From: a phage
Length of the DNA stretch: 64,000 bases
Sequence record: PZ445428.1
Strand: one strand, 5' to 3'
The notes beneath the pieces are model-generated. The model was not told where the DNA came from. It saw only the letters and a program-made list of their open reading frames with translations, and did no database searches. The position numbers were made by a program, and so were the translations under genes. Positions 300 to 42,900 of the stretch are shown in pieces (positions within the stretch are counted from its first letter, which is position 1; every line of letters begins with the position of its first letter).

Positions 300-370
300 G
301 TACAATTTTTATTTTTCTGCTTCGGACTTTCTTATCAATCCGAAACTTTCTCTCTCAAATTTATGTATAT

Positions 371-399
371 ATTATACAATAATTATGAACTGTTGCCAA
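371..399 (-). promoter_or_regulatory. sigma70-type promoter (TTGGCA-17-TATAAT), tandem with 270-299
   Basis: Reverse complement reads TTGGCAacagttcataattattgTATAAT; shares a 20-bp direct repeat (aatttatgtatatattatac) with the promoter at 241-260. Confidence 0.5.
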
Positions 400-12436: not shown

Positions 12437-12467
12437 TTAAATACTCCTCTCTCAAATTTATGAATCT

Positions 12468-12496
12468 ATTATACAGAAAATTTTTGCAAGATGCAA
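12468..12496 (-). promoter_or_regulatory. T5 N25-like strong early promoter
   Basis: Reverse complement reads TTGCATcttgcaaaaattttctgTATAATAGATTCATAAATTTGAGAGAGAGGAG, nearly identical to the classical T5 PN25 sequence. Confidence 0.7.
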
Positions 12497-12504: not shown

Positions 12505-12738
12505 TTACGATTCCTTGAGCAAAGAAGCCAGCTCAGCATAAACTTTATCTAACTCAAATCCAACGCGAAGGGACACACGAGTCTTCCGTTGTTTCAGAAG
12601 CCATATAGATACGTTAGGGATACCAGCGAGACGAGGTGGTACAACCCTACATAACTTTTCCGCAGTGTCATATCCGGAACGTTTACTCTCTTTTACGGGG
12701 AACTTCCTTGTTTCCCATTTTTTATTCTTCGCTGTCAT
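12505..12738 (-). CDS. hypothetical basic protein
   Basis: Start moved to internal Met with GGGAG 6 nt upstream; the track start would overlap the upstream gene by 68 nt. Confidence 0.45.
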   Translation of the reverse strand: MTAKNKKWETRKFPVKESKRSGYDTAEKLCRVVPPRLAGIPNVSIWLLKQRKTRVSLRVGFELDKVYAELASLLKES

Positions 12739-15577
12739 TTCTAGCTCCCAGTTCTGCCAAAGCCTCTTCATGCATCTGACGTTCTTCATCAGTCATGAAC
12801 TTAACTGGAATCGGCATACACTCGATCTTACAGTAAGTTCTGTACCAGTCCACAATCTTTTCTGTATCCAAATCCTTTCCGATACCCATCATTCCCAAGT
12901 ACATACGAGCATACTTTGGGTTTGCACTCTGACCTGTTTTAAGGAAGAAATCTTTCTTCTTACCTTTCAGAGCTTCGATAAATGGTTTGATTGTGACATT
13001 TGAACACTTCTTAATATCTTCCCAGAACATCTCGTGCATCTTATGGAAGAATGCAGCCCGATCGTTTGGTTTATCCTTGATATACTGTTCAACATGTTCA
13101 ACTGTTACATCTTTAATAGAATCAAGATGATAGTAACGAACTAGCAGAAGTTTTGCTTCATAAGCATCAGCATGACGTGGTGCACAATAATCAGGAGTTG
13201 AGTGCAGGATAGCTTTAATTCGCTCTTCTGTGTACTCTTTGTTTGCACCTTCGATAGTCCCCCAGCTTTCACTGAAGATATCAATAGTCGCACCCTGATC
13301 AAGCAGATAATAGCGTAGAGTACTAGTATAATTCCTAGACTCCAGCTCACGACGACGTGCATAAAGTTGCTGTGCTAACTCAATCCAACCTTCGTCAATA
13401 TTATACTGCTCGGAACCCGCAGAAAATCCACTTGTAGACTTATCAATAAAGTAATAGATATTCTGAGCACCACGGTCGCGCCTGATTGCTTGAAAACGCA
13501 TGTTTGGCGCTTGGTTACTGGTTCGAGTAATAACGAATACGTTATCGAAATAGTTAAAGTCAACCCCACTCGTTACAGAGGGACTACATAATAAACAATC
13601 AATCTGCTGATCAATTAGCTCATTAGTTGTGTAATCCAGAATACGACGAATATCCACATCTGATGTGGAATTTGAGTGAATTTCTTTAACTAACGCACCA
13701 GTATTACGACGTAACGCCATACCTTTTTCGTTCAGTTCATCCGGACCACAGTCAGATACTAGGATAGATTTCTCACCCATCTCTAGAGATGTTTGTAAGG
13801 CAACCCAAATGCTGGATTCATCAGGGAACTCATAAGCATGAGCTTTTGCCAGCATTTTACGGTGATGATTATAGAACGCTACCGGTTTATCAAAGTCGAT
13901 CAGAGAGCCATAGGCTTCAATCGTTTCAGCACTAATATCACCATCAGACAGAATAACTGTTTTAGCTGTCATGAGAATATCACGAAGAACCTGAATACAT
14001 TCACGACGGTTCTTAACAACTGGAGCAAACAACAGGTCATTCATTACCGCGTCACATTCATCGATAAAGATTGTATCAATCTGACCAACAAAACTCTTGA
14101 ATTTATGGATTGAGTGAATCGTAGTTGACATACGATCAATCGCACCACGCTTGAAGTTCAGCATATCTACAGACTTATCATACTGACCAGCACTAAATTT
14201 CTTTGCGTTTGAAGATACCAGAGCACGAGTGTTTGTTACCGCGATGAAATTCCCAGGAAGAACGCCAGCATCCAGCCACTTCGTTACCGCCGTAGTTTTA
14301 CCTGTACCAAGACTTGCCTTAACAAATGTTAGGTGATCTTTTGGAGGTACAATGTTAATCTTCAGATATGGGACTTCCGCTGGAGAATCCGTATTTAACT
14401 GTTTTAGAGGAACACCTTTCAAGTTTTGTGGAATATCTCTACGACTATTGTTAACAAACGCTTTTAACGCCTGTTTACGACCGTTATTGAAGTAATCCTG
14501 AATATTACGACTATTATCTTTAGTTGCAATGTATTCAGACAAGGCAGGTTTAATCTCACGTTCTAACCACGCAAAATCAACACCATCCTCTAACGCTCGG
14601 TGATATAGTTTTGGAATAATACGCAGGTACACTCCATCCTCAGCTTCTTCTAATTCGCTGATGGTTTCCTCTACTTTTTCAGAAGCAGCCTTCTTACCTT
14701 TGATTTGATCGAGTAAAGAGTAGAACTCTTCTTTGAACTCACCCCTAGTTGTTTCATAGTCAACTAGGTTGTTTGGCAGATTTACTTTCGAACCCTTAAC
14801 ATACACAAGGCGTGGCTTATTCTCCGCTTTAAACGGATCAACTATACCATCGCTAAATAAAGGGTCGGCAAAATAGTGAAGCTGTACAGAAGAATAATAA
14901 GCTAAGTCAGCAATATCAAAACCATACTTTTGCTTACTACTATCGTTGATAGACGTAAATAAGAACTTTAACTGTCCCTGCGTCACCTTAACATTAGATT
15001 CCAGCATTAAGTGCATTCGGATACCTGATTTTAATCCAGCCGAAGACGATGCATGAGCAATAAACCCTGCATCAAGAGGAAACATATCCTCACTAATACT
15101 ATGTAACATCTTAATGATATGACGTGCCATGCCAACAAGATTAAACTTGTCGTAACCACCAGTATCCTGAATACCATCCACGTCCATTGCAATAATGTGA
15201 CTAGGATTAGAAACGTTAAAGTTTCCACGAGTACGACGGACATTATCCTTTGGAGCCAAACATTTACCACGAATAGCCACAATATGAGGATCTTGGGTTA
15301 GCCTACGCATAATAGGCAGCATTTCAGCAAGGCTTTGCGGGTCAAGCTCTTCAAGTACATCAAATTTGAAGGGCATGGAAGCTGGTTTACCTTCCGGATG
15401 CTCTTTCGAGAATCGCTTAGCAAAGGTGTAATCTTCCACTTTAATTTCTTTCCAGATGCCTGTTGCTTTATCTCTGGAAAATCCTGCATGACCTTGTAGG
15501 ATTGAGAACACAACAATACTCCTATGCTGGTTATTCGAATACTTTTCTTTAGGACTATTCAAAAAAGAATAGAACAA
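12722..15577 (-). CDS. large P-loop NTPase, helicase or replication-initiator-like
   Basis: 951 aa; Walker A LGTGKTTAV and Walker B FIDECDAV in the central region; N-terminal MDVDG segment may be primase-like. Confidence 0.65.
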   Translation of the reverse strand: MFYSFLNSPKEKYSNNQHRSIVVFSILQGHAGFSRDKATGIWKEIKVEDYTFAKRFSKEHPEGKPASMPFKFDVLEELDPQSLAEMLPIMRRLTQDPHIVAIRGKCLAPKDNVRRTRGNFNVSNPSHIIAMDVDGIQDTGGYDKFNLVGMARHIIKMLHSISEDMFPLDAGFIAHASSSAGLKSGIRMHLMLESNVKVTQGQLKFLFTSINDSSKQKYGFDIADLAYYSSVQLHYFADPLFSDGIVDPFKAENKPRLVYVKGSKVNLPNNLVDYETTRGEFKEEFYSLLDQIKGKKAASEKVEETISELEEAEDGVYLRIIPKLYHRALEDGVDFAWLEREIKPALSEYIATKDNSRNIQDYFNNGRKQALKAFVNNSRRDIPQNLKGVPLKQLNTDSPAEVPYLKINIVPPKDHLTFVKASLGTGKTTAVTKWLDAGVLPGNFIAVTNTRALVSSNAKKFSAGQYDKSVDMLNFKRGAIDRMSTTIHSIHKFKSFVGQIDTIFIDECDAVMNDLLFAPVVKNRRECIQVLRDILMTAKTVILSDGDISAETIEAYGSLIDFDKPVAFYNHHRKMLAKAHAYEFPDESSIWVALQTSLEMGEKSILVSDCGPDELNEKGMALRRNTGALVKEIHSNSTSDVDIRRILDYTTNELIDQQIDCLLCSPSVTSGVDFNYFDNVFVITRTSNQAPNMRFQAIRRDRGAQNIYYFIDKSTSGFSAGSEQYNIDEGWIELAQQLYARRRELESRNYTSTLRYYLLDQGATIDIFSESWGTIEGANKEYTEERIKAILHSTPDYCAPRHADAYEAKLLLVRYYHLDSIKDVTVEHVEQYIKDKPNDRAAFFHKMHEMFWEDIKKCSNVTIKPFIEALKGKKKDFFLKTGQSANPKYARMYLGMMGIGKDLDTEKIVDWYRTYCKIECMPIPVKFMTDEERQMHEEALAELGARNDSEE

Positions 15578-16010
15578 CTATTACTAACGTCAACACAAAT
15601 ATTAATCATCATCAAGCAGTATGGATAAGTTACCATACCTCAGTGCTGTGCTCTCTATACTCATATCCAGAATAGAAATTAGGTCTATCGGCCGCTAAGC
15701 CATTTCTATTTGTCCTCACTATCCTATTGGTAGGTGACTACTGGACGTGTTACCATTCGCAGCTCTTTTCGTTCGCACCCCCATAAAAGCCTCTCCCTAT
15801 CTAACGAAGCTAATATGCACGGTTTGGATTTACCTTTCCGAATTCAGGGTACACAGATCACTTAATTGACAACCAACTAATATCGTATAAACATTAGTAA
15901 TAGTTAAAACAACCTTTAATGGGGCAGCCGAACTGTTCCGTATTGCGGATTGTAAACAAGAAAAATTAGTAAAATCAATTTTTACTAATGTCTCTCAATT
16001 CAATATAAAT

Positions 16011-16040
16011 ATTATATCAACTTTTGGAGCATCCTGCAAG
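16011..16040 (-). promoter_or_regulatory. sigma70 promoter facing the ORF-free region 15578-16010
   Basis: Reverse complement reads TTGCAGgatgctccaaaagttgaTATAAT. Confidence 0.5.
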
Positions 16041-16130
16041 TAAAATTTTCCCGACGGTGCTATCAGTGGCCTTGAGTACGGAGAAAACCGAGCCAAAGTG
16101 ACTCGGTAATCAGGATTGTGCTAAGGAAAA

Positions 16131-16538
16131 TCAATCATCATTTAGACCTGGAACATAGATTCCAATACGGTTTAATTGATGTTTGGCTTCTTCGAGAATA
16201 TCTGGAGTGTACTCCCAAATATCATCTTCCACAAATAACAAATAAGGGGACTCACCTGTTTCGGGGTCACGTGTAATGGCGTAACCGCGTGGGTGGAACA
16301 GGGAGAAGTTTAGGGCAACAATAAGACCCATACGAGATAGCTCATTCCAGTGCATCTCAAAATCTACAGGAACATCATTTTGATCTCTACTGGTAACAAA
16401 GATTCCTAGACAAGGATCTGTCGGGTCAGTAAAGGGGAAAGTTACACTAACCTTTTCAACCCCCAACCAACGTGCAAGGAGCCCTTCAGCCCGCTCCACT
16501 AAACTAGGATCAATAAGACGCCAAGATACTTGTTCCAT
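16131..16538 (-). CDS. hypothetical protein, paralog of 16549-16977
   Basis: C-terminal half aligns with the neighbour: WNELSRMGLIVALNFSLF against WKELDYMGLVFALNYKLF, both ending IPGL/VPGL. Confidence 0.6.
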   Translation of the reverse strand: MEQVSWRLIDPSLVERAEGLLARWLGVEKVSVTFPFTDPTDPCLGIFVTSRDQNDVPVDFEMHWNELSRMGLIVALNFSLFHPRGYAITRDPETGESPYLLFVEDDIWEYTPDILEEAKHQLNRIGIYVPGLNDD

Positions 16539-16548
16539 TCTGCCTCCT

Positions 16549-16977
16549 TTAAGCAGTTAAACCAGGGATCTGATAGCCGAAATGACGCAGCTTCTGGATA
16601 CCCTCATTTATTTCTTCGGGCGAATAATGCCAGCCCTCACGTTCATTTACCTGGAAAGCCGGAGCCTCCCCATTACGATAGTTTACTATCAAACGATGTT
16701 TAATAGGCATGAACAGTTTGTAGTTCAATGCAAAAACCAATCCCATGTAGTCCAGTTCTTTCCAGTCTACAATCTCTTCTACCCCATCTTCCAACATTAC
16801 ACTGATACCAATGCAGCTAGCTTCATCAGAGTCTGAAGTAAACGCGAAAGCAATCTCATTATTCTCACACCAAATCTTGAGAGTATTAATGGCTTCCTCA
16901 AACAGATTATCCGGCAGAGAACGCCAGAAGTTGATAAGAAGTGGATTGATATTGGTTTCAAATAGGTTATTAAACAT
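16549..16977 (-). CDS. hypothetical protein, paralog of 16131-16538
   Basis: Tandem duplicate, 142 aa. Confidence 0.6.
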   Translation of the reverse strand: MFNNLFETNINPLLINFWRSLPDNLFEEAINTLKIWCENNEIAFAFTSDSDEASCIGISVMLEDGVEEIVDWKELDYMGLVFALNYKLFMPIKHRLIVNYRNGEAPAFQVNEREGWHYSPEEINEGIQKLRHFGYQIPGLTA

Positions 16978-16979
16978 AG

Positions 16980-17519
16980 CTATACCTTTAAGTTTTGAAG
17001 GGCTTTACACATTGCAAGATCAGGACTAAACTCCAGCATATAGCTGATAGCATTCAGATCCTGCATATTTATTCCAGTTCTACCATTGACAATAACTGTT
17101 GGATACTGGTACATCATAGCTCCAGCATCATCTAGGACACACCAGTGCTTGAGTTTGTACTTTTCCACAAACCGAAGAACAGAATTGCCTCTAGATAATC
17201 CACCACCAGTAAAATCAGTAGTACCAAGAAAACGATCAACCAGACCTAACGCGGTCATGATCTCAACATTCTCCACCTCGTTACGTACTGTAAACCATGA
17301 TGAAACCCCAACAATCATTATACCGGATGGTTTTAAGAAGTTCTGGAAAGCCTGTAGTAAAGGTTTGAAAACCCAGTCTCCACCAAAGAAGATCTTCTCT
17401 TCATCTGGAGCATGGTGGTGAGAGATGCTCGAATTGAGCACCCCATCAATATCCAGAAAAATAATTGGAGTATTACTTAGATCCACCGGATTTGTCCCAT
17501 TGCAGAGTTTTAGCTTCAT
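16980..17519 (-). CDS. HAD-superfamily phosphatase-like protein
   Basis: HAD motif I FLDIDGVL; motif II VGVSSW; later VLDDAG. Confidence 0.6.
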   Translation of the reverse strand: MKLKLCNGTNPVDLSNTPIIFLDIDGVLNSSISHHHAPDEEKIFFGGDWVFKPLLQAFQNFLKPSGIMIVGVSSWFTVRNEVENVEIMTALGLVDRFLGTTDFTGGGLSRGNSVLRFVEKYKLKHWCVLDDAGAMMYQYPTVIVNGRTGINMQDLNAISYMLEFSPDLAMCKALQNLKV

Positions 17520-17658
17520 CGGAGAAAGGAATATGGTAGTCTACCTTACCCTTACCAAACATAGCCGCCAAAAATACAGTATAGATAGTAATCATACCAA
17601 TCAGGTTTACAGTCCACACCAATACTTTCCAGATACCCTTAAAAATCTTCTTCACCAT
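17473..17658 (-). CDS. hypothetical small membrane protein
   Basis: 61 aa with one hydrophobic helix; overlaps the HAD gene start. Confidence 0.35.
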   Translation of the reverse strand: MVKKIFKGIWKVLVWTVNLIGMITIYTVFLAAMFGKGKVDYHIPFSDEAKTLQWDKSGGSK

Positions 17659-17821
17659 ATTCTTCCTCCTTAATCAGGAATTCTTTCCATTCTGCTGTAT
17701 CCTCATAGATAACGCAGAAATCATCACTCTTGCACGAGAAATCATCAGTAGCATATTCAAAACGGTAGCACCAACTACCATCTGGCCATACTAAAAGATC
17801 ACACATGCTTTTGCGGTGCAT
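17639..17821 (-). CDS. hypothetical small acidic protein
   Basis: 60-aa ORF overlapping neighbours by about 20 nt. Confidence 0.35.
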   Translation of the reverse strand: MHRKSMCDLLVWPDGSWCYRFEYATDDFSCKSDDFCVIYEDTAEWKEFLIKEEEYGEEDF

Positions 17822-18575
17822 AAATAGTTCCTTCCATAAAAGCCCCTACTTGGCCAATAAAGTGTTTGTTACCAAAAACTTCGGCAGCCCCAGCACGCCA
17901 TACAGTAACACCACGTTTCTCATACAAGGACTGTTCTAAGTAGTTGATAGTTGGGTTAACAACCATCATCTTAGTACCCCGTGCCACCGCAGGAAATAGT
18001 TCCCAGTTGAAGTTGATAACTTGGTTACTGCACCCAACCACGATAACCATATCATTAGCCGTAAGACTATCGAAAGTAGCGTTCATCAAAGCGTATTCAG
18101 GGGCTACTTCACCGAAGAATACAACGTTAGGCTTAGCCCAATAAAACTCATCAGGATCTATGGCAGTATAACCCACATCTAGGATATACTCTTTTCGATC
18201 TGGCAATTCCTTAATACGAACTTCTGGTAAATAACCATGAACGTGTAGAACTTCACTTTTTGGCACACCAGCCCTTTCCAGTAGATCATCCACGTTAGTA
18301 GTGATGTTCAGTACAGTCTCTGGATATCGTTGGAACCACTCCCCAATGCGGAGATGCGCAATGTTAGGTTCAACAGTCTGCAATTCCTGACGACGCTTGT
18401 TGTAGAACTCGTGGGTTTTCCAGTAGAACTGTCCACGGAAAGCATGAATATCACATACTTCTTCCAGATCGTATTCATCCCACATTGCCTTGCCACTAGC
18501 AGTATCTGTACGGAATGCACGGATACCACTATCAACACTTAAACCTGCACCACTAACAATAATTAGTCTACGCAT
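17799..18575 (-). CDS. SIR2-family (sirtuin-like) NAD-dependent protein
   Basis: N-terminal IVSGAGLSVDSGIRAFR matches the sirtuin GAGxSxxxGIPxFR NAD-binding motif. Confidence 0.65.
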   Translation of the reverse strand: MRRLIIVSGAGLSVDSGIRAFRTDTASGKAMWDEYDLEEVCDIHAFRGQFYWKTHEFYNKRRQELQTVEPNIAHLRIGEWFQRYPETVLNITTNVDDLLERAGVPKSEVLHVHGYLPEVRIKELPDRKEYILDVGYTAIDPDEFYWAKPNVVFFGEVAPEYALMNATFDSLTANDMVIVVGCSNQVINFNWELFPAVARGTKMMVVNPTINYLEQSLYEKRGVTVWRAGAAEVFGNKHFIGQVGAFMEGTIYAPQKHV

Positions 18576-19276: not shown

Positions 19277-19294
19277 AGCTTTCTCCTCTCAAAT

Positions 19295-19323
19295 TTATAA
19301 ATCTATTATACACAAATTTTTAG
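19295..19323 (-). promoter_or_regulatory. N25-like early promoter
   Basis: Reverse complement reads TTGCTTTCAGctaaaaatttgtgTATAATAGATTTATAAATTTGAGAGGAG. Confidence 0.65.
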
Positions 19324-35021: not shown

Positions 35022-36144
35022 CATAAATTAGAGAGAACAGCGAGCCGATTACGCTGAGTGCAGAATCCCAACCGGAGCGCATTGAATAGAGTCGGTGAGT
35101 TGTACTAGGATTCCTGATTAGAGAGGTTCCAGGCACCGCAGGGTTTACTCTGTACCGCTTCCAGCTATCGATATCAGGAATGAATAGTGCGCAAAACTCG
35201 GGAGCTGTCCCGAAACCTCGTAAACTCTTCTCTCTAATTTAATTAAACGATGGATCTCAGCACGAGCCAGTCACAGTGTGAAACATGGTGCGTGACCCAG
35301 GGGTAGAAGACTAGGAGTTGGCTTGAGAAACCCATGTAACTCCTAACGCTGACCCGTCTAGGTTGCAAATCGAGACATGTGTATATCACAATGAGGTAAG
35401 TGACCATCAAATAGTGGGTAGCGTAATTTTTAGGTGAATGATGGAGGTCTAACGACTGAGGGCATCATCTCGGGATTACCAGCCACGAAATAGTGGGGTG
35501 TCGAACTGACTTATGTAATAACACTGCCGTCCTAGTATAAACGGTAATATCAAGCCGTAACTGGTGGAAGATGTAGGTTCGAATCCTACGGTCGGTAAGA
35601 ATTAGATAACTCGGGCTTATACCGGATAAGCATTCGCTGCGGAAGTACATACTATGACGGTTCAGGAGGTACGCCGCCTGATCAGTATGAGGTTAGAATC
35701 GAAACCGCTAAACCACGAGGAAACCTGACGGCCTCAGCCAAACTCGGAAACTCAGGATCGCTGCTTAGTGCGTGCCCTGTTTTAACCTAGAGACTAAGCA
35801 CTCCAGCTTCGCATCGAAAATCGGAGGTGCGATTCTACTAGACCGCGTAACTATGAGAGGGGGAAATGCTCACATGAAACATGTGACTAATGGTGCACAA
35901 TAGAACAGGTAAACGCGATAAGTCCTGTTGAGTAGCAGCAGAAGGCTGGGAGTCATGACCTGAGCCTAACCGAGTTCTCCACATAGGGAGGACATAACCA
36001 CGAAGTCACCTTGACTTAAACTGGAAGATATTGTCTGACGGCAGGGCTGAAGAGCTTAATCTGAGGGGGCTGACCCTACCTACCGCCGGGTATCTTTAAG
36101 AGCTTTTGAGAGAGTTCTTAAAAATACCTAACAAAATCTATTTT
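35022..36144 (+). ncRNA. candidate structured stable RNA(s) or tRNA-like elements, about 1.1 kb ORF-free
   Basis: No ORF on either strand apart from one spurious minus ORF; higher GC; many hairpins (TAGGAGTT...AACTCCTA; AGAGAGAA...TTCTCTCT about 200 nt apart); T-arm-like GTAGGTTCGAATCCTAC at 35573-35589. Confidence 0.4.
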
Positions 36145-36219
36145 CGGGGTGTAGTCTAAGGGATAGGCAGGAGTCTTCTAAATTCCTTTATGCAGGTTCG
36201 AATCCTGTCACCTCGGCCA
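36145..36219 (+). tRNA. tRNA-Arg (anticodon TCT)
   Basis: Hand-folded cloverleaf: acceptor CGGGGTG/CACCTCG, anticodon loop CTTCTAA, T-arm GCAGG-TTCGAAT-CCTGT, encoded CCA. Confidence 0.8.
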
Positions 36220-36245
36220 ATTTTATTAACTAGTAGGAAAATAAA

Positions 36246-36446
36246 ATGAAAACACGATATATAGTAAAAGCAGTAGGTGAACATTCTCAAGTAAATACCA
36301 CTGATGTTACAGCACTAGCGTTTGAAGTAGTCTCCGGTATAGTTATATTTCATAATGGAGATATTAAAGCACCTGAATTTGCTGTGGATTCTGGCCTGTT
36401 TATTTCTGCCACTAAAGTAACTGTAGTATCTAACTCTTCTAAATAA
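36246..36446 (+). CDS. hypothetical protein
   Basis: 66-aa ORF. Confidence 0.4.
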   Translation: MKTRYIVKAVGEHSQVNTTDVTALAFEVVSGIVIFHNGDIKAPEFAVDSGLFISATKVTVVSNSSK

Positions 36447-36457
36447 TAAGGAAATAT

Positions 36458-37402
36458 ATGTTTACTAAAAACACTAAAGAACTAACTTCTGAACAAAAAG
36501 TAATTCGTACTATTAAACGTTGGGGTGTTGGTGCTGTAGTTGGTCTTGGTGCTCTTATTCTGGCTCTCAATTCCTATACAGTTGTTCAGGACGGTACTGT
36601 AAAGACTCAGACATTCTTGGGTAAAGTTAACCCGAACCCTGTACTGCCAGGGTTTCACATTGTCAACCCATTCGCTTCTTTTGATACTTTTAGTACGAAA
36701 GATATTTCCATGAAACTGGATAAGCTTCAGGTTCCTAGCCAGGATAAGTTTAAGTCCACTGTTGATATTACTGTTATGTTGCAGTTCGATGGTGCTAAAG
36801 CTCCGATGAACCGTGTTAACGCAGGTACTCAGGATCAGGCGCTGAACAAGTATGTTGAAGAGAAGATGCTGTCTACTATCCGTGAATTTGGTAAGTCTGT
36901 ACCGAAAGCACAGGATCTGTTCGACGCTAAGATTCAGGCACAGCTGCAAACTGCAATTCAGCAGGAAGTTGAAGAATATGCTCGTCCTTATGGTTACACC
37001 GTGAAGCAAGTATTCCTTCAGGATATTACACTTCCGCCAGTAATCATGGAACAGGTTCAGAACACAAAAGTTCGTGAAGAACAAGTTAACGCCGCTAAAG
37101 CTGAACTAGCTCGTGTTGAACAAGAAGCACAGCAGAAAGTTAAGCAAGCTGAAGCAGATCGTTCTGCTCGTGAAAACATGGCAGTAGCTAACGAACGTGA
37201 CGCAGATGCTAAACTGTACGCAGCTAAGAAAGAAGCTGAAGCTAACGCCGCACTGCAACGTACCATTACCCCTGAAATGATTCGTTGGAAACAGCTGGAA
37301 GTTGAAATGCTTCGTGCTGAGAAATATCAGGGTGGTGTACCGCAGACTGTAGTTGGTACTGGTTATGATGGCCAGATGATCATGGATATGCGTAACAAGT
37401 AA
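36458..37402 (+). CDS. SPFH/band-7 (stomatin/prohibitin-like) membrane protein
   Basis: N-terminal TM segment, SPFH-like core, long C-terminal coiled coil (EQEAQQKVKQAEADR). Confidence 0.6.
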   Translation: MFTKNTKELTSEQKVIRTIKRWGVGAVVGLGALILALNSYTVVQDGTVKTQTFLGKVNPNPVLPGFHIVNPFASFDTFSTKDISMKLDKLQVPSQDKFKSTVDITVMLQFDGAKAPMNRVNAGTQDQALNKYVEEKMLSTIREFGKSVPKAQDLFDAKIQAQLQTAIQQEVEEYARPYGYTVKQVFLQDITLPPVIMEQVQNTKVREEQVNAAKAELARVEQEAQQKVKQAEADRSARENMAVANERDADAKLYAAKKEAEANAALQRTITPEMIRWKQLEVEMLRAEKYQGGVPQTVVGTGYDGQMIMDMRNK

Positions 37403-37427
37403 TAGACATACGTAACATCTGAAGTAA

Positions 37428-37460
37428 GCCCGCGTTTCCTCCGAGAGCGCGGGCTTTTCT
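37428..37460 (+). terminator. intrinsic terminator after the SPFH gene
   Basis: GCCCGCG...CGCGGGC hairpin followed by TTTTCT. Confidence 0.65.
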
Positions 37461-37474
37461 GTATTTAAGGCAAA

Positions 37475-37510
37475 AGAAAAGCCCCTTACCTTTCGGCAGG
37501 GGCTTTGTTT
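37475..37510. terminator. bidirectional terminator at convergent junction
   Basis: GCCCCT...AGGGGC hairpin flanked by T-runs on both strands. Confidence 0.55.
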
Positions 37511-37720
37511 TTGGTTTAGAACCATACTCTCTTGTTACAGCAACCACCCATACGGGAGACCAATCTTGACTGAAAATCTACTCTAGGGGGCAGGATAAGA
37601 GTAGGCTTAAAGGCAAACGGATTGAACACCGGTATTTGCGTAAACATTGCTGGAGAGCAACAACGTGCTACAGGCATTGGGCAGCATGATGTAGGCTTTC
37701 TACAACACATTTAAACCTCC

Positions 37721-38149
37721 TTAGGAGTTATTCCCATTGTTTTGAGCTTTTGCAATCTGACTCTGGCAGTAGCTGTTAAACTTCCCCATGTAAGAGACAA
37801 GAAGCTTTCCATCCTCTGTTTTAGCGAATTCTTCGAAAAGGGACAATACGGCCTGTCCCTCAGCAGAAACTTGCTGTTGTTGAGGTTGTTGAACCTGCTG
37901 CTGTTGAGGCATTTGCATCTGCTGCTGAGGCTGCATTTGTTGAGGCATTTGCGGCTGCCCGCTCATTTGCTGCATCATCTGCATAGGGTTTACACTTCCA
38001 GGATTCTGCTGGAATTGCTGTTGCATATTCTGAGCTTCTGCCAAACGCTGTTGCAACTGCTGTAGGTAAGGGTTATCCAGACCCGGAACGGGCTGCTGGG
38101 AGCCCATTGGTTGATTAAATCCGTTGTTTACAAAACCATATTTACTCAT
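37721..38149 (-). CDS. Gln/Pro/Met-rich low-complexity protein
   Basis: 142 aa with a long QQMQPQQQMQMPQQQQVQQPQQQQ tract; on the opposite strand to all surrounding genes. Confidence 0.55.
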   Translation of the reverse strand: MSKYGFVNNGFNQPMGSQQPVPGLDNPYLQQLQQRLAEAQNMQQQFQQNPGSVNPMQMMQQMSGQPQMPQQMQPQQQMQMPQQQQVQQPQQQQVSAEGQAVLSLFEEFAKTEDGKLLVSYMGKFNSYCQSQIAKAQNNGNNS

Positions 38150-38170
38150 AATGGGCTCCTCCCCTTAATA

Positions 38171-39166
38171 TTAAGCTGGCAGCTTAGCTTGTAGGCCAGC
38201 CAGCGTCTGAGTGATAGCACCTAGGCTAACAGCGATCTGGTTGATTACCTGACCGTTTGCACCACTACCCTGAGCGATTGCTTCGCGTAGACGACATTCG
38301 TTCAGTTCGTCCTGGATACGCGCAGTAGTTACACCAGCGATCGCAGACTGAAGTTCACAGCAGCACTCAGCAATCTGACGTTCCAGAGAGTTCTGGTTAG
38401 CACACATCTGAGCCTGAACAGCGGCGAACTGGTTGTTTGTCTGGATAGACTGAGCAAAAGAGATCTGTGCAGCATCAAACTTGTCCTGTGCACGAGCGAT
38501 CTGGTTAGCAGCGAAAGCTTGATCCATCTGACGAGAAAGATCGAACTGACCCTGAATAACGTTACGAGTTTCCTGACAGATCTGGTTGGACAGGTTAGCA
38601 CCAGTACCATACACAGTAGTCAGAATCTGTTGAGTGCTAGAAGCTTGAGCAGCACCTACACCATTAACAGCGTTTAGAACAGCACCAGTACCTTGATTTG
38701 CTTCAGTACGAGTAGTGTTGATTGCAGCTAGAATACTTGCAGTATCCTGGTTGGAAAGGATAGCGTCCACAGCAGTTCCCTCAGTGGCAACACCAGCACC
38801 ACGACCTAAACCACCGAAACCACCGAATCCGCCTGTTAATAGAGCACCAATCAGGATAGCTCCGAATAGACCCATACCTTCACCACCGAAAGCACCCTGT
38901 GCAGCAGCTGGGTAACCACCCATCAGACCTGGGAAGCCGCTAGTGAATACGTTTACTGGTTCTTGCATTTTATGTTTCCTATGTTTATGACAGCCCTCAT
39001 GGTCGTCATCTTCTTCATCGTCATCATCGTGATCACGATGTTTCTTTTCGTAGGCTTTGACCTTCTCCCACTTATGTTTGTCTGATTCCTCATGACGTCT
39101 CAGTTCTGCTGCGACTTCACTTACGGTCTCAGGTTTCTTAGTTACTTCATCTGTCATTTTTGACAC
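38171..39166 (-). CDS. hypothetical protein: His/Asp-rich N-terminus, glycine-zipper hydrophobic segment, Ala/Gln-rich C-terminus
   Basis: 331 aa; HRDHDDDDEEDDDHEGCHKHRKHK, then GLFGAILIGALLTGGFGGFGGLG, then a Q/A-rich helical region with CCC cluster. Confidence 0.55.
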   Translation of the reverse strand: MSKMTDEVTKKPETVSEVAAELRRHEESDKHKWEKVKAYEKKHRDHDDDDEEDDDHEGCHKHRKHKMQEPVNVFTSGFPGLMGGYPAAAQGAFGGEGMGLFGAILIGALLTGGFGGFGGLGRGAGVATEGTAVDAILSNQDTASILAAINTTRTEANQGTGAVLNAVNGVGAAQASSTQQILTTVYGTGANLSNQICQETRNVIQGQFDLSRQMDQAFAANQIARAQDKFDAAQISFAQSIQTNNQFAAVQAQMCANQNSLERQIAECCCELQSAIAGVTTARIQDELNECRLREAIAQGSGANGQVINQIAVSLGAITQTLAGLQAKLPA

Positions 39167-39218
39167 CTCCTAGTATATAGAAAATGTGTGTCTCTTTGAT
39201 CACTCATCCATAACATAT

Positions 39219-39248
39219 ACTTTACACTACCCCAGCGAAAATGTCAAG
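39219..39248 (-). promoter_or_regulatory. atypical promoter for the minus-strand island (TTGACA-18-TAAAGT)
   Basis: Reverse complement reads TTGACAttttcgctggggtagtgTAAAGT; lacks the conserved early-promoter downstream box. Confidence 0.35.
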
Positions 39249-39364
39249 GGGTCTTTAAAAATTGCCCCCGGATTTTTATTGGGGTAATAATTTTGGGGTC
39301 TGCCCACTCACCTGCTACCCTTAAGTGCCCTACTATTTTCCTACAAAAAGTTTAAAAATTCGAT

Positions 39365-39392
39365 TGCTTGAACGCTAAATTCTCTGTATAAT
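39365..39392 (+). promoter_or_regulatory. sigma70 early promoter
   Basis: TTGCTTgaacgctaaattctctgTATAAT. Confidence 0.6.
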
Positions 39393-39423
39393 ATATTTAT
39401 AAATTAATGAGAAGGAAGTAAAT

Positions 39424-39888
39424 ATGAACAAGTTCAAAGGCATTCGAGTTATTCCTTGTCTTATTCCTAAAACCTTCAAAAGATTCGCTGAATGGCGTGG
39501 TGATGAAGAAGAACTTAGTCATTGCTTCCATAAATATAAAGAAATAGAGTGTGAACCACGTTTCAATCGTCCAGGTCTTTACATGGATCGTATTAACAAA
39601 GAAGCATGGTACGAACTAGAAATGCTTGATGGTACTATTCGAGCTTTCAGCACAGAATATGAGCATCAAGAATGGGTCTGGAAGTATAAGTACTCTCACG
39701 GTGATCGTATTCTGAACAAAGGCGAATATGAAGAAATGCGCCGTATGTTCCAACTATATAACGTGCCTCTAGAGCAGCAGCCAGATGTATACAGAGCTAG
39801 CCGTGAATACTGGCATGATAAAGCAATAGGACGAGATATGGAGTTGTGTTTACTTCGTTCTTCTAAACGAAAAGCTGAGAAGGAATAA
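39424..39888 (+). CDS. hypothetical protein
   Basis: 154-aa ORF. Confidence 0.5.
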   Translation: MNKFKGIRVIPCLIPKTFKRFAEWRGDEEELSHCFHKYKEIECEPRFNRPGLYMDRINKEAWYELEMLDGTIRAFSTEYEHQEWVWKYKYSHGDRILNKGEYEEMRRMFQLYNVPLEQQPDVYRASREYWHDKAIGRDMELCLLRSSKRKAEKE

Positions 39889-39893
39889 AAATA

Positions 39894-40184
39894 ATGAAAC
39901 ACTACGCAGAACGTGAAATTGATGAATTAGACTTTGCTGGCGGGTTTTATTCCACCCATGTTAGTGCTATGACCGCAGAAGGACTTAATTCTAAGTCGGC
40001 TATTGCGGCAGAATTAGCATTTCGTGATTTTACTATTGCTGAAATGCAAGAGCATATTATGCGACTAGAGAATCAGGTGGATGAACTCCTGAAGCACAAT
40101 GAGGAACTAGGTGAAGATCTCCATGAACTCACAGAAGAACGTGATACTCTTTACATGAAGTTAGCCGGTCATGAATCTTTTTAA
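39894..40184 (+). CDS. hypothetical protein
   Basis: 96-aa ORF. Confidence 0.5.
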   Translation: MKHYAEREIDELDFAGGFYSTHVSAMTAEGLNSKSAIAAELAFRDFTIAEMQEHIMRLENQVDELLKHNEELGEDLHELTEERDTLYMKLAGHESF

Positions 40185-40190
40185 ATTTAT

Positions 40191-40219
40191 TTGCTAAATA
40201 ACTTGAATTTCTATATAAT
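40191..40219 (+). promoter_or_regulatory. sigma70 early promoter
   Basis: TTGCTAaataacttgaatttctaTATAAT then ATAAATTTGAGAGAGGAAG. Confidence 0.6.
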
Positions 40220-40249
40220 ATACTTATAAATTTGAGAGAGGAAGCAAAT

Positions 40250-41314
40250 ATGATTAAGACTGGTCTAGTAATTGGTAAATTCGCACCATTAACTCGTGGT
40301 CATATCAACCTTATTAATACTGCGGCGACAATGTGTGAGCGCGTTATCGTTGTAGTTAGCCACGACAATCGTTGGCTGGATAAGCAAAACTCTAGGGATC
40401 AAGAAGTCCTACAGTTGAAGAATCGTTTACGATGGCTTGAGCAGACTTATGCAGATATTGAGCATGTGGAAATCCACGATCTTATCGAAGATGATATTCC
40501 TGAGTACCCTAATGGATGGGAAGCATATACCAAGATACTCCAGGAGTGTTATGGTATGTATCCTGAAATCACTATCTTTTCTAGTGAAATTGGGTATGAT
40601 GCGGAGTACAAAAAGTATCTGCCAAACTTCGGCCATTATATTGTAGACTCGGAACGCACTCGTGTACCAATCTCTGCTACTATGATTCGTGAGAATCTGA
40701 TGAAGTATTGGGAGTTCCTGCCTAGCATAGTTCGTAAAGACTATGTTCGCAAGGTAGTTGTTATCGGTACTGAAAGCTCTGGCAAGACAACTTTAACAAA
40801 GTATCTTGCGAAGTTATATAATACTTCATGGGTTGAAGAGTATGGTCGTACATACTGTGAAGTTGACTTAGTAGGCAACGAAAGCCTACTGACTAGCGAC
40901 GACTACACGAAGATTGCATTTAGGCACAAAGAGCTAGAGTTTGAAGCAGAATGTACTGCAAATAAGATCATGTTTGTGGATACCAATGCTTTCATTACTG
41001 AGTTCTACCATAGACTCTACGAACATCGTAAGAATCCTGTGGTTACGGCTATTGCGAAAGAAGAACATTACGATTTAGTTATTGTTCTAGCACCTACTGT
41101 GAAGTGGGTAGATGATGGTTTACGTATTAACTCAGATCGTTCTATTACTTCAGAACTATTCGAGCAGATGAAGGAGGAGTTCCCTAACCAATTCCCAGAG
41201 GGACGCACTGTTTATATCGACTCACCGGACTACAAAGTTCGTATGGACGAAGCTGTAAATGCTGTAGACTGGTTAATTCATTATGTTGACGCGGGAGCTA
41301 TCCAATATGACTAA
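40250..41314 (+). CDS. nadR: bifunctional NMN adenylyltransferase / ribosylnicotinamide kinase (NadR-like, no HTH)
   Basis: GKFAPLTRGHINLI, NRLRWL, YPNGWEAY, ISATMIRENLMKYWEFLP and kinase P-loop VVVIGTESSGKTTL align along E. coli NadR. Confidence 0.85.
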   Translation: MIKTGLVIGKFAPLTRGHINLINTAATMCERVIVVVSHDNRWLDKQNSRDQEVLQLKNRLRWLEQTYADIEHVEIHDLIEDDIPEYPNGWEAYTKILQECYGMYPEITIFSSEIGYDAEYKKYLPNFGHYIVDSERTRVPISATMIRENLMKYWEFLPSIVRKDYVRKVVVIGTESSGKTTLTKYLAKLYNTSWVEEYGRTYCEVDLVGNESLLTSDDYTKIAFRHKELEFEAECTANKIMFVDTNAFITEFYHRLYEHRKNPVVTAIAKEEHYDLVIVLAPTVKWVDDGLRINSDRSITSELFEQMKEEFPNQFPEGRTVYIDSPDYKVRMDEAVNAVDWLIHYVDAGAIQYD

Positions 41315-41984: not shown

Positions 41985-41993
41985 TTGAATTTA

Positions 41994-42014
41994 TAGCCCT
42001 CTACCTGAGGGCTA
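41994..42014 (+). terminator. hairpin after pnuC
   Basis: AGCCCTC-tacct-GAGGGCT with a weak T-run. Confidence 0.4.
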
Positions 42015-42033
42015 TTATACAGAAAATTTCACT

Positions 42034-42061
42034 TGCTAATTGCCGAAATTTTCTGTATAAT
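42034..42061 (+). promoter_or_regulatory. sigma70 promoter driving tRNAs
   Basis: TTGCTAattgccgaaattttctgTATAAT; tRNA-Ser starts about 15 nt downstream. Confidence 0.6.
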
Positions 42062-42075
42062 ATATTCATAAATTC

Positions 42076-42169: not shown

Positions 42170-42176
42170 AATTCAT

Positions 42177-42254: not shown

Positions 42255-42271
42255 ATTAACTAGGAGACTTT

Positions 42272-42798: not shown

Positions 42799-42806
42799 GA
42801 TTACAT

Positions 42807-42883: not shown

Positions 42884-42900
42884 AATAAAAGGAAACTGAT

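What the first reader, a model, noticed from the sequence alone, without database searches (positions are those of the whole stretch)
15578..16130. 550-bp ORF-free region downstream of a promoter, with a perfect 10-bp palindrome
In a densely packed replication block there is a 550-bp gap with no ORF on either strand. A minus-strand promoter (16011-16040) reads into it and a perfect inverted repeat ATTAGTAAAA-tcaat-TTTTACTAAT sits about 25 nt downstream of the -10. Candidate replication origin, operator or non-coding RNA.
Basis: seen in the sequence. Interest (0 to 1): 0.5.

Follow-up and report, generated by a model that had tools for sequence, protein, structure and literature searches.

The report
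Structured leader RNA before T5-type replication helicase
The "empty" 0.6-kb gap in this T5-like phage is transcribed from a strong early promoter into a roughly 490-nucleotide, intricately folded RNA that sits in front of the replication-initiator helicase gene; it is kept across much of the phage family, matches no described RNA family, and the palindrome is simply its first hairpin.

Summary
The window is Escherichia phage TrudiGerster (Bas27), a T5-like Demerecviridae phage. There is a 619-bp CDS-free gap (15512-16130), a T5-early-type promoter on the minus strand (-35 at 16039-16034, -10 at 16016-16011), and a perfect 10-bp palindrome (15965-15989).

The gap is not empty. It is the ~494-nt leader of the gene for the UL9-like "origin-binding" helicase (T5.108, the D2 of Wong et al. 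2013). Across 25 relatives, 97 proposed base pairs are 98.5% maintained. Twenty-five pairs carry compensatory double changes, against 5-7 in slid controls. G·U pairs make up 17% of cells, and the opposite strand pairs only 81.8%, so the folded strand has the minus-strand (RNA-sense) sequence.

- The fold has a 5' hairpin P1 (the palindrome), a second hairpin P2, and a long-range rod (P3/P4) closing a ~200-nt head.
- The head exists in two versions only ~40% identical, yet they keep the same helices.
- A CU-UAGC-GG hairpin is the most widely conserved element, from T5 to Proteus and Aeromonas phages.

There is no conserved ORF, no Rfam match, and no description in the searched literature. Function is unproven. 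The best guess is a cis-acting regulatory or processing leader for the helicase. Rivals are an origin or primer RNA and a free ncRNA.

The parts
16080..16106 (-). Intrinsic terminator closing the upstream operon (DUF7415 / HAD_SAK_2 / Sir2-like genes). Stem CCGAGTCA, loop CTT, stem TGGCTCGG, then TTTTCTCC.
   Evidence: Read. The homologous site in T5 is annotated 'putative rho-independent transcription terminator' at 58952-58976. Distant relatives have other hairpin plus T-run sequences at this position.
16011..16039 (-). T5-early-type sigma-70 promoter: -35 TTGCAG (16039-16034), 17-nt spacer, -10 TATAAT (16016-16011). The inferred transcription start is near 16004.
   Evidence: class of 5 promoters with TATAAT-N12-TTGAGAG. 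(a promoter is retained in all 34 relatives). (annotated promoter in T5). The start site is inferred by analogy with the T5 PN25 promoter, recalled from memory, and is not measured.
15958..15996 (-). P1, the 5' hairpin of the leader (GAGAGACAUUAGUAAAA / UUUUACUAAUUUUUCUU).
   Evidence: I3; helix 1, 98% of cells paired. Other lineages keep a hairpin with different sequences: TTAGACAA/TTGTCTAA in DU_PP_V and TTAGGCG/CGCCTAA in Providencia-type phages.
15909..15953 (-). P2 hairpin carrying the near-invariant block AUACGGAACAGUUNGGCUGCCCCAU ('island 2', 15918-15944).
   Evidence: helix 2: 99% paired, but almost no variation, so it is supported by conservation rather than covariation. One search shows P1-P2 is 95% identical where the helicase coding sequence is 81%.
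15875..15906 (-). 5' arm of the long-range helix P3. It pairs with 15575-15607, about 300 nt away.
   Evidence: I2: 15 nt, 93% complementary. helices 3-5, with compensatory changes: A-U in the window phage, G·U in T5, G-C in the second head type. DU_PP_V has GAUUAUUAUACAG / CUGUAUAAUAAUU at the same position.
15575..15607 (-). 3' arm of the long-range helix P3.
   Evidence: Same as for the 5' arm.
15643..15861 (-). P4 helix (15851-15861 with 15643-15651, conserved AU bulge) enclosing the ~200-nt multi-helix 'head'. The head occurs in two sequence types ~40% identical that keep the same helices.
   Evidence: helices 6-13 (4 of 9 P4 pairs have double changes).. Read by eye (not confirmed by the naive check): the Klebsiella type has UUG·AU·CUAGAA / UUCUAG·CAA and the Providencia type CUAACCACAU / AUGUGGUUAG.
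15672..15709 (-). Hairpin with covarying outer stem (AUAGAAAU / AUUUCUAU) holding the invariant small hairpin GGCU-UAGC-GGCC (15690-15701). This is the most widely conserved element.
   Evidence: helices 11-12 (6 of 8 outer pairs have double changes). (motif present in T5-likes, DU_PP_V, Klebsiella-, Providencia-, Proteus- and Aeromonas-phage gaps). (single copy in the window).
15620..15640 (-). Last hairpin of the domain, between the 3' arms of P4 and P3. Its sequence is replaced by GGGGAAGUUGCCACCCC in the other head type.
   Evidence: helix 14: 2 of 3 pairs have double changes.
15540..15574 (-). Conserved box GUUCUAUUC-UUUUUU-GAAUAGUCCUAAAGAAA with a small hairpin (15555-15572), between the structured domain and the ribosome-binding site.
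   Evidence: helix 15. Other lineages keep a hairpin here with different sequences: CUAUC/GAUAG, CUUUCC/GGAAAG, CCUG/CAGG.
15509..15523 (-). Shine-Dalgarno GGAG (15522-15519) and GTG start codon (15511-15509) of the helicase gene.
   Evidence: invariant in all T5-like relatives.
12722..15511 (-). 929-aa UL9-like SF2 helicase, also annotated 'replication origin binding protein' or 'DNA primase'. It is the ortholog of T5.108, the D2 of Wong et al. 2013. It is the only neighbour of the gap conserved across the family.
   Evidence: Pfam Herpes_ori_bp, residues 387-533.. PMC3632103. (a gap upstream of this gene in six further genera).

Best explanation
The gap encodes a large structured RNA. Host RNA polymerase starts at the T5-early promoter near 16004 on the minus strand. 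It transcribes a ~494-nt leader that continues into the gene for the UL9-like replication helicase (T5.108/D2).

The leader folds as follows:
- P2, a second highly conserved hairpin.
- A long imperfect rod made by sequences ~300 nt apart (P3 and P4).
- A ~200-nt multi-helix head closed by that rod, whose best-conserved feature is a CU-UAGC-GG hairpin.
- A small hairpin ahead of the Shine-Dalgarno.

Shown here: the promoter class, the absence of coding potential, the fold and its strand, and the family-wide linkage to the helicase gene.

Inferred: the RNA acts in cis on the helicase message. It would set its stability, processing or translation. The conserved UAGC hairpin would be a binding site for a protein or a tertiary contact. 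The long P3/P4 duplex would be a likely double-strand-specific (RNase III-type) processing stalk that could release the head as a separate RNA.
For: Transcription unit:
- A terminator, then a promoter, then no further conserved promoter or terminator before the start codon in T5-like phages.
- The promoter is kept in all 34 relatives and belongs to a five-member promoter class in the window.

Structure:
- RNAalifold finds 102 pairs, 28 of them with compensatory changes.
- On a 97-pair structure, 98.5% of 2414 cells pair.
- 25 pairs have double-sided changes, against 5-7 when partners are slid by 1-3 columns.
- The covariation score is 0.241 against 0.04-0.07, and 0 of 500 shuffles reach the observed values.
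- Compensation is seen at several separate splits: the two head types, the L044 subgroup, L055, and DU_PP_V.

Strand:
- Sense pairs 98.5% against 81.8% for antisense, and 17% of cells are G·U.
- Alignment folding energy is -183 for sense against -150 for antisense.
- Single-sequence energy is -120 against -93 kcal/mol, with z = -2.9.

Selection:
- P1-P2 is 95% identical where the adjacent coding sequence is 81%.
- The head is ~40% identical yet keeps its helices.

Family-wide pattern:
- The same architecture sits at the same distances in a Klebsiella-phage type with different helix sequences.
- ORF-free gaps of 0.5 to more than 1.4 kb lie upstream of the same gene in Pectobacterium, Klebsiella, Providencia, Proteus, Vibrio and Aeromonas phages.
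- Folding z-scores are -3.8 for the Proteus phage and -3.1 for the Aeromonas phage.

No conserved ORF was found.
Against: - No transcript, 5' end or 3' end has been measured. The start site is inferred.
- The cis-regulatory role is inference. The predicted pairing of nt 52-66 with the start-codon region never varies among T5-likes and is largely broken in DU_PP_V, so it has no covariation support.
- In Aeromonas and some Vibrio phages a strong terminator separates the non-coding stretch from the helicase gene. In a Proteus phage a consensus promoter separates them. This fits a self-standing RNA, or an origin, better than a translational leader.
- The Vibrio phage Skimmer gap shows no folding signal (z = 0.0) and lacks the conserved motifs, so homology across the whole family is not established.
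- Covariation cannot separate RNA from the displaced non-template DNA strand, which has the same sequence.
- The structure tested was derived from the same sequences, which favours it in the controls.
Confidence: 0.5

Rival explanations
1. Replication origin that works through its transcript. The early promoter fires into an AT-rich stretch. The structured RNA, or the displaced DNA strand with the same sequence, forms a persistent R-loop or hairpin platform. The adjacent UL9-like helicase is loaded there and leading-strand synthesis is primed. This would resemble ColE1 RNA II or the phage T4 uvsY and gene 34 origins.
For: - The only conserved neighbour of the gap across the family is the initiator-like helicase gene. 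Origins usually lie in or next to the initiator gene (general knowledge).
- The T5 copy lies at 59.05-59.54 kb of 121.75 kb, which is 48.5-48.9%. Davison states that T5 origins map near the centre of the molecule (bioRxiv 10.1101/866236).
- The helicase is proposed to be the replication initiator, and its amber mutants make no DNA (PMC3632103).
- The promoter-P1 segment is the most AT-rich 100 bp of the region, at 22% GC.
- Distant relatives end the non-coding transcript with a terminator before the helicase gene.
- A ~500-nt structured transcript with lineage-specific, compensated divergence is what ColE1-type pre-primers look like (recalled knowledge).
Against: - No iterons or repeated boxes exist. 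All repeats found are accounted for by RNA helices.
- The one UL9 Box-I-like 9-mer occurs in only one head type.
- No plus-strand (antisense) promoter-like site was found in the gap.
- The cumulative GC-skew minimum lies at ~21.5 kb, where gene orientation flips, not at the gap.
- In T5-likes the transcript appears to run on into the helicase gene.
Confidence: 0.2
2. A self-standing, trans-acting large non-coding RNA. It would be made from the leader by processing in T5-likes, or by its own terminator in other genera. It would bind a host or phage factor, for example as a decoy against a defence system or as a scaffold. Its position next to the helicase gene would be historical.
For: - Terminators (Aeromonas and Vibrio phages) or a second promoter (Proteus phage) separate it from the helicase gene.
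- The long P3/P4 duplex resembles processing stalks that excise stable RNAs (inference).
- The head diverges very fast (~40% identity) while the flanks stay 95% identical. This is as expected for a molecule in an arms race or co-evolving with a partner.
- An optional 96-nt extra domain is present in 51 of ~533 genomes.
- Size and complexity match large phage-borne RNAs of unknown function (recalled: GOLLD, ROOL).
Against: - No terminator or conserved processing signal lies between the domain and the start codon in T5-likes.
- The strict linkage to one gene over large evolutionary distance argues for a functional tie.
- There is no match to any known large RNA family.
Confidence: 0.2
3. The palindrome is a double-stranded DNA operator for a dimeric phage or host repressor, such as the helix-turn-helix proteins nearby, sitting just downstream of the promoter. 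The rest of the gap would be spacer.
For: - It is a perfect 10-bp palindrome centred ~27 nt downstream of the inferred start, a position from which a bound protein could block elongation.
- The ends TTAG...CTAA recur in three lineages.
Against: - Twenty-two of 25 relatives carry a change that keeps RNA pairing (G·U) but breaks DNA symmetry.
- Other lineages replace the inner half-sites with unrelated self-complementary sequence. The TTAG-CTAA spacing changes (15, 18 and 17 nt), and in a Proteus phage the order is reversed.
- The helix extends to 16 pairs only on the RNA-sense strand.
- It does not explain covariation across the other 400 nt.
Confidence: 0.05
4. Non-functional spacer, a decayed gene, or unannotated small proteins.
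For: Some deposited annotations place 33-43-aa ORFs in the gap, or extend the helicase ORF into it.
Against: - These ORFs are not conserved in position.
- The 43-aa antisense ORF has no counterpart in the other head type, and its variable sites are spread 4/7/6 over the three codon positions.
- Frame-breaking indels are common.
- Compensatory base-pair changes and segments more conserved than the coding sequence show selection on the nucleic acid.
Confidence: 0.03

Closest known systems
ColE1/pMB1 RNA II pre-primer (plasmid origin RNA)
   Same: - A ~500-nt transcript from a strong sigma-70 promoter.
- An elaborate conserved secondary structure.
- It sits beside replication functions.
- Related replicons differ by compensated changes.
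   Different: - No antisense (RNA I-type) promoter was found.
- The transcript runs into a protein-coding gene.
- No origin has been mapped here.
- There is no sequence or Rfam similarity.
Phage T4 R-loop origins (uvsY and gene 34 origins) and the T7 primary origin
   Same: - A phage promoter followed by an AT-rich, easily unwound stretch.
- The transcript serves replication initiation.
- The element lies in a lytic phage that brings its own replisome.
   Different: - Those origins are not known for a large covarying RNA fold.
- Here the AT-rich part is only the first ~50 nt.
- There is no experimental link to initiation in T5.
Herpes simplex virus oriS/oriL with the UL9 origin-binding helicase
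   Same: - The adjacent gene is the closest characterised relative of UL9 (PMC3632103).
- There is an AT-rich-centred palindrome in a non-coding region between genes.
- UL9 also recognises a single-stranded hairpin form of its origin (recalled knowledge).
   Different: - UL9 boxes flanking the AT spacer are absent. A single Box-I-like 9-mer lies ~200 nt away and only in one head type.
- The similarity of the phage protein to UL9 is limited to the helicase core.
Autoregulatory leader RNAs of phage replication genes (T4 gene 32 pseudoknot, T4 gene 43 operator hairpin)
   Same: A structured 5' leader in front of an early replication gene. It is a plausible site for feedback on translation.
   Different: - Those operators are under 100 nt, whereas this leader is ~490 nt with a 300-nt closed domain.
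- No binding protein is known.
Large phage-associated structured RNAs of unknown function (GOLLD, ROOL)
   Same: - Several hundred nucleotides long, with many helices.
- Carried by phages.
- Supported by covariation, with function unknown.
   Different: - No covariance-model match.
- Not next to tRNA genes; the tRNA array is ~20 kb away.
- Tied instead to a helicase gene, and apparently part of an mRNA.
RNase III processing stalks (rRNA precursors, T7 early mRNA)
   Same: Long imperfect duplexes formed by sequences flanking a structured RNA. P3+P4 form roughly 35-50 bp with small interruptions.
   Different: Cleavage has not been shown, and no sequence rule could be tested.

Membership tests
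Any Rfam 15 family (including riboswitches, GOLLD, ROOL, tmRNA, RNase P, 6S, group I/II introns) | A covariance-model score at or above the family's gathering threshold. | tested here: not met
   - No hit in the gap at gathering thresholds, and only chance-level hits of 21 bits or less at E up to 10.
- The same holds for the other head type, the insertion-bearing form, T5, DU_PP_V, and the Klebsiella, Providencia, Proteus, Vibrio and Aeromonas loci.
- No tRNA or tmRNA.
T5 early sigma-70 promoter class | A -35/-10 pair with 17-nt spacing plus the conserved initial transcribed sequence (TATAAT-N12-TTGAGAG). | tested here: met
   - TTGCAG-17-TATAAT followed by ATTTATATTGAATTGAGAG.
- Five such sites in the window against 0.08 expected.
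- The T5 record annotates a promoter at the homologous place.
Structured non-coding RNA (generic) | Base pairs maintained by compensatory substitutions beyond controls, with strand asymmetry (G·U). | tested here: met
Structured non-coding RNA (generic) | The region is transcribed, with a detectable RNA of defined ends. | not testable with these tools
   No expression data were available, and literature searches found none for this region.
Riboswitch / cis-regulatory leader | An expression platform: a terminator or Shine-Dalgarno-sequestering helix that alternates with the sensor fold and is supported by covariation. | tested here: inconclusive
   - RNAalifold proposes UCCU (15554-15551) pairing with the SD, and nt 52-66 pairing with the start region.
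- These pairs do not vary in T5-likes and mostly fail in DU_PP_V.
- Other lineages have different local SD hairpins.
ColE1-type primer RNA origin | An antisense regulator promoter (RNA I) within the first ~100 nt. | tested here: not met
   No plus-strand promoter-like site in 15000-17000. This is a weak test, by consensus scan only.
ColE1-type primer RNA origin | A persistent RNA:DNA hybrid and RNase H-generated primer end at the origin. | not testable with these tools
   Requires R-loop mapping and mapping of the RNA-to-DNA transition point.
Iteron-type or UL9-type DNA origin | Repeated initiator-binding boxes (direct or inverted) flanking an AT-rich unwinding element, conserved among phages with near-identical initiators. 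| tested here: not met
   - Only short two-copy repeats exist, all of them arms of RNA helices.
- CGTTCGCAC occurs once and only in one head type, although the helicases are ~90% identical.
Replication origin (any type) | A copy-number peak or initiation point mapped to the locus. | not testable with these tools
   Only indirect evidence exists: the central genome position. GC skew is uninformative, because it follows gene orientation.
Protein-coding gene / small ORF | An ORF conserved in position, with amino-acid conservation and a codon-position substitution bias. | tested here: not met
   plus the frame-breaking indels.

The most novel reading that the evidence does not exclude
The gap is a new class of large origin-associated RNA. 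In this reading, T5-family phages start replication at the centre of the genome by transcribing a ~0.5-kb (up to more than 1 kb) folded RNA next to the initiator gene. The UL9-like helicase would recognise this RNA, or the displaced strand it exposes, through the conserved UAGC hairpin and the head. The two very different head types would be specificity variants that keep co-infecting relatives from using each other's initiator. This would identify the still-undefined T5 origin, and it would be the first ColE1-like structured primer or organiser RNA in a large lytic phage.
Probability: 0.15. Interest if true: 0.85.

Novelty: new variant of a known kind. Interest (0 to 1): 0.62.

Why it matters
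T5 is a classical model phage, yet its replication origin and the control of its initiator helicase are undefined.

A covariation-supported ~490-nt RNA directly upstream of that gene has gone unannotated in more than 500 sequenced relatives. Where annotated at all, it is mis-annotated as small ORFs or as an N-terminal extension.

- It gives a concrete, testable object for two open questions: where and how T5-family replication starts, and how early replication genes are regulated.
- It adds a candidate new family to the short list of very large structured RNAs carried by phages.
- Its two deeply divergent but isostructural head versions offer a natural experiment in RNA structure evolution.
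- In practice, genome annotators should stop calling ORFs in this gap, and phage engineers should avoid using it as a "neutral" insertion site.

Tried and rejected
- **Known RNA families:** Rfam scans of the window, the gap at permissive thresholds, and ten related loci found nothing. The tRNA/tmRNA scan found nothing in the gap.
- **Small ORFs and an N-terminal extension of the helicase:** rejected.
- **Mobile element bounded by inverted repeats (the P3 arms):** rejected. The internal helices also covary, and pairing is strand-asymmetric.
- **DNA operator at the palindrome:** rejected (see rival explanations).
- **UL9 Box-I motif:** present once, but only in one head type, so treated as coincidence.
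- **DnaA-box-like TTATCCATA at 15633-15625:** read and not conserved in relatives.
- **GC skew as an origin marker:** uninformative.
- **Kissing interaction between the two conserved islands (GGCUGC with GCGGCC):** not supported in the Klebsiella or Providencia types (read).
- **Long-range pairing of nt 52-66 with the start codon:** no covariation.
- **Metagenome pattern scan for more relatives:** Only one (L151) also carried the second motif, so the rest were treated as chance matches.
- **Small covariance model of the UAGC hairpin (R1):**
  - It recovered its own seed sequences (window, L069) and also the Providencia-type L076.
  - It recovered the Klebsiella and DU_PP_V copies only weakly.
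  - It missed the Proteus and Aeromonas copies.
  - It found no second copy in the window.
- **Co-variation of a helicase segment (aa ~358-395) with the head type:** one evolutionary event only, so not used as evidence.
- **Literature:** searches for a T5 origin, transcriptome or leader RNA found no description of this region. Bourguignon et al. 1976 is not held.
Full report
**What the window is**

The region is 100% identical to Escherichia phage TrudiGerster (Bas27, MZ501108; Epseptimavirus, Demerecviridae), a T5-like phage. Window position equals record position minus 32480. All genes around the finding lie on the minus strand.

- The downstream gene (12722-15511) is a 929-aa protein. Its only Pfam hit is the herpesvirus origin-binding-protein family, over the helicase core.
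- It is the ortholog of T5.108. Wong et al. 2013 characterised this protein as D2: a bipolar SF2 helicase most similar to HSV UL9, proposed to be the replication initiator, with DNA-negative amber mutants (PMC3632103).
- Upstream lie two DUF7415 paralogs, an RNA-repair-type HAD protein and a Sir2-like protein.

**Checking the observation**

- **The gap is real.** The deposited CDS starts at GTG 15511 behind GGAG (15522-15519). The open frame that reaches 15577 is not coding, because close relatives differ there by 1-2-nt indels. The non-coding stretch is therefore 15512-16130 (619 bp).
- **The promoter is real.** It has -35 TTGCAG at 16039-16034, a 17-nt spacer and -10 TATAAT at 16016-16011. 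It belongs to a class of five promoters in the window that also share the first transcribed bases, TATAAT-N12-TTGAGAG (0.08 expected by chance). The T5 GenBank record annotates a terminator and a promoter at the homologous places and nothing in the 470 bp that follow. A hairpin plus T-run at 16106-16080 ends the upstream operon.
- **The palindrome is real.** It lies at 15965-15989. It is one of five distinct perfect 10-bp hairpin repeats in the window, against about 0.5 expected.

**What the gap contains**

Homologous gaps exist in 533 phage records. Aligning representatives showed an unusual pattern.

- The first ~100 nt after the promoter are about 95% identical among T5-like phages. The last ~70 nt before the start codon are 82-91% identical. 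The neighbouring coding sequence is only about 81% identical in the most distant of these comparisons.
- The central ~300 nt occur in two versions that are only ~40% identical.
- Short islands remain invariant inside the divergent part, notably GGCUUAGCGGCC. The sequences flanking such islands are different but self-complementary in every lineage.
- RNAalifold on 25 leaders (both versions plus Pectobacterium phage DU_PP_V) predicted 102 pairs, 28 of them with compensatory double substitutions.

I tested a 97-pair structure in 15 helices with the counting tool.

| Measure | Proposed structure | Controls |
|---|---|---|
| Cells forming standard pairs | 98.5% of 2414 | 92.6% in shuffles; 34-51% with slid partners |
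| Pairs with double-sided changes | 25 | 5-7 (slid) |
| Covariation score | 0.241 | 0.04-0.07 (slid) |
| Shuffles reaching the observed values | 0 of 500 | not applicable |

- Compensation occurs at several separate branches, not only between the two head versions. Examples are U-A to C-G in P4 and two swaps in the island stem within the L044 subgroup, two swaps in L055, and several in DU_PP_V.
- Caveat: the structure was derived from these same sequences, which helps it in both controls.

**Which strand folds**

- Seventeen percent of paired cells are G·U.
- The mirrored structure on the opposite strand pairs only 81.8% of cells, against 98.5%.
- The alignment folding energy is -183 against -150.
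- The single-sequence energy is -120 against -93 kcal/mol.

The folded molecule therefore has the sequence of the minus strand. That is the transcript made from the promoter, or in principle the displaced non-template DNA strand.

**Anatomy (minus strand, 5' to 3')**

| Element | Window coordinates | Notes |
|---|---|---|
| Inferred start | ~16004 | By analogy with T5 PN25; not measured |
| P2 | 15953-15909 | Carries the near-invariant AUACGGAACAGUUNGGCUGCCCCAU |
| P3 | 15906-15875 with 15607-15575 | Long-range helix |
| P4 | 15861-15851 with 15651-15643 | Conserved AU bulge |
| Head | 15652-15850 | About 200 nt, multi-helix, closed by the P3-P4 rod |
| UAGC hairpin | 15701-15690, in stem 15709-15672 | GGCU-UAGC-GGCC; 6 of 8 outer pairs show double changes |
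| Last hairpin | 15640-15620 | Between the 3' arms of P4 and P3 |
| Conserved box | 15574-15540 | Small hairpin at 15572-15555 |
| SD and start | 15522-15519; 15511-15509 | GGAG and GTG |

Coordinates were computed.

- The palindrome is perfect in only two of 25 relatives. In 22 it holds a G·U.
- Other lineages have a hairpin at the same place with unrelated sequence and a different stem length.
- The four copies of the TTACTAAT/ATTAGTAA motif found by the repeat finder are simply the arms of P1 and P3.

**Range across the family**

- A Klebsiella-phage type (helicase 78% identical) has P3, P4 and the island hairpin at the same distances from the promoter, with different helix sequences.
- Providencia-type phages have the 5' hairpin, a P4-like helix and the UAGC hairpin. 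Proteus phages have the 5' hairpin and the UAGC hairpin motif, which the small covariance model R1 nevertheless did not recover.
- The Proteus gap is 820 bp, folds with z = -3.8, and has a second consensus promoter just before the helicase gene.
- Aeromonas phage TS3 (helicase 27% identical) has at least 1.4 kb without an ORF above 55 aa. It has three UUAGCGG hairpins, z = -3.1, and a strong terminator before the helicase gene.
- Vibrio phages also have 0.5-0.7-kb gaps, but without the motifs. The one folded showed no signal (z = 0.0), so homology there is open.
- The genes upstream of the gap are not conserved across genera. The helicase gene downstream always is.

**What it is not**

- No Rfam family matches any version, and there is no tRNA or tmRNA.
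- No ORF is conserved. The 43-aa antisense ORF annotated in some records has no counterpart in the other head version and shows no codon-position bias.
- There are no iterons.
- The HSV UL9 Box-I core CGTTCGCAC occurs once in the whole window, inside the gap, which is striking. It is restricted to one head version, although the helicases are ~90% identical, so I treat it as coincidence.
- The cumulative GC-skew minimum is at ~21.5 kb, where gene orientation flips, not at the gap.
- Literature searches found no description of this region.

**How it most likely works**

Shown:

- A conserved early promoter.
- A non-coding sequence under strong selection for a specific, strand-specific fold.
- Constant linkage to the initiator-like helicase gene.

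Inferred:

- In T5-like phages the RNA is the leader of the helicase mRNA, because no conserved terminator or promoter intervenes.
- It acts in cis on that message.
- P1 may protect the 5' end.
- The UAGC hairpin, conserved from T5 to the Aeromonas phage, is the likeliest ligand or tertiary-contact site.
- The long P3/P4 duplex looks like a double-strand-specific processing stalk that could release the head.

I give this reading 0.5. I give about 0.85 to the narrower statement that the gap encodes a functional structured RNA.

Two rivals remain serious.

- **An origin that works through its transcript (0.2).**
  - It is favoured by the position next to the initiator gene and at 48.5-48.9% of the T5 genome, where origins were mapped (bioRxiv 10.1101/866236), and by the terminators in distant relatives.
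  - It is disfavoured by the lack of boxes and by recombitron data suggesting replication from one end (PMC10055335).
- **A free trans-acting RNA (0.2).** It is favoured by those same terminators, by the fast-evolving head, and by an optional 96-nt extra domain present in 51 genomes.

**Comparison with known systems and novelty**

- The element works like a structured leader or, possibly, a ColE1-type or T4-type origin transcript. It resembles GOLLD and ROOL in scale.
- It fails the tested membership features of each of these. It matches no covariance model, shows no antisense promoter, and has neither initiator boxes nor a covariation-supported expression platform.
- It is best filed as a new, unnamed RNA family of a known general kind. 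It is unannotated in the records examined here, including T5 itself.

**Verdict**

Interest is moderately high (0.62). It rests on a robust and previously undescribed structured RNA in a classical model phage, discounted for the unknown function and the absence of expression data.

Noticed in passing
window ~15957 (between P1 and P2); L007 1049-1145, L057 1958-2045: An optional ~96-nt insertion, predicted to fold on its own and flanked by AAGAAAAA direct repeats, sits between P1 and P2 of the leader in 51 of ~533 T5-like genomes. Those examined include phages of both head types. There is always one copy per genome.
   Followed up: partly
L004 (phage oselot) 1049-1079; L013 (KKP_3822), same site: The same junction after P1 carries AAAATTAGCA-repeat expansions in oselot, where it is annotated repeat_region, and a poly-A expansion in KKP_3822. 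It is a length-variable hotspot.
   Followed up: no
window 15770-15778 (+): CGTTCGCAC, the core of the HSV UL9 Box I site, occurs once in the 64-kb window, inside the gap next to the UL9-like helicase gene. It is present in all phages with this head type, including T5, but absent from the other head type and from more distant relatives.
   Followed up: partly
window 352-376 (-), 12449-12473 (-), 15992-16016 (-), 19286-19310 (-), 40214-40238 (+): Five promoters share TATAAT-N12-TTGAGAG (0.08 expected). This is the T5 early-promoter class with a conserved initial transcribed sequence, and it gives a quick map of early transcription units in the window.
   Followed up: partly
window 16131-18575 (-): The operon ending at the gap encodes two DUF7415 paralogs, a HAD domain of the 'Swiss Army Knife RNA repair' type, and a Sir2-like protein. 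In several relatives the DUF7415 proteins are mis-annotated as tail tube proteins.
   Followed up: partly
L082 (Aeromonas phage vB_AdhS_TS3) 1-1508: At least 1.4 kb upstream of the helicase gene has no ORF above 55 aa and folds with z = -3.1. It holds three UUAGCGG hairpins (about 397, 643 and 1218) and a strong terminator at 1381-1425. It may be a much larger version of the same RNA.
   Followed up: partly
L081 (Vibrio phage PG07) ~1130-1305: The gap upstream of the helicase gene holds two ~95-nt direct repeats. This is either iteron-like or a duplicated RNA domain. The T5-type motifs are absent.
   Followed up: no
L002, L003 (phages vB_SenS-3, Sw2) 1-1735; L005 (MM-1) 883-1248: Deposited annotations extend the helicase ORF ~40 codons into the leader, or-50-aa ORFs in the gap. 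Frame-breaking indels among close relatives show that these calls are spurious. The product name also varies between DNA primase, primase C, origin-binding protein and helicase.
   Followed up: yes
L005 (phage MM-1) 1336-1788; also L051, L061, L073: In MM-1 an HNH homing endonuclease gene lies just upstream of the leader. MM-1, L051, L061 and L073 carry a different promoter sequence (TTGCAAGGGAGTATTATTTTATAGTATAAT) while the leader is unchanged.
   Followed up: no
window 14330-14440 (-), helicase residues ~358-395: The linker just before the Walker A motif is the helicase segment that differs most between phages carrying the two head types: 61-65% identity, against 82-86% within a type. This is a single event, so it is only a hint of co-evolution.
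   Followed up: partly
window 35525-50449 (+): An array of 29 tRNA genes, including a tRNA with anticodon ACT called Ser by ARAGORN. It lies about 20 kb from the finding.
   Followed up: no
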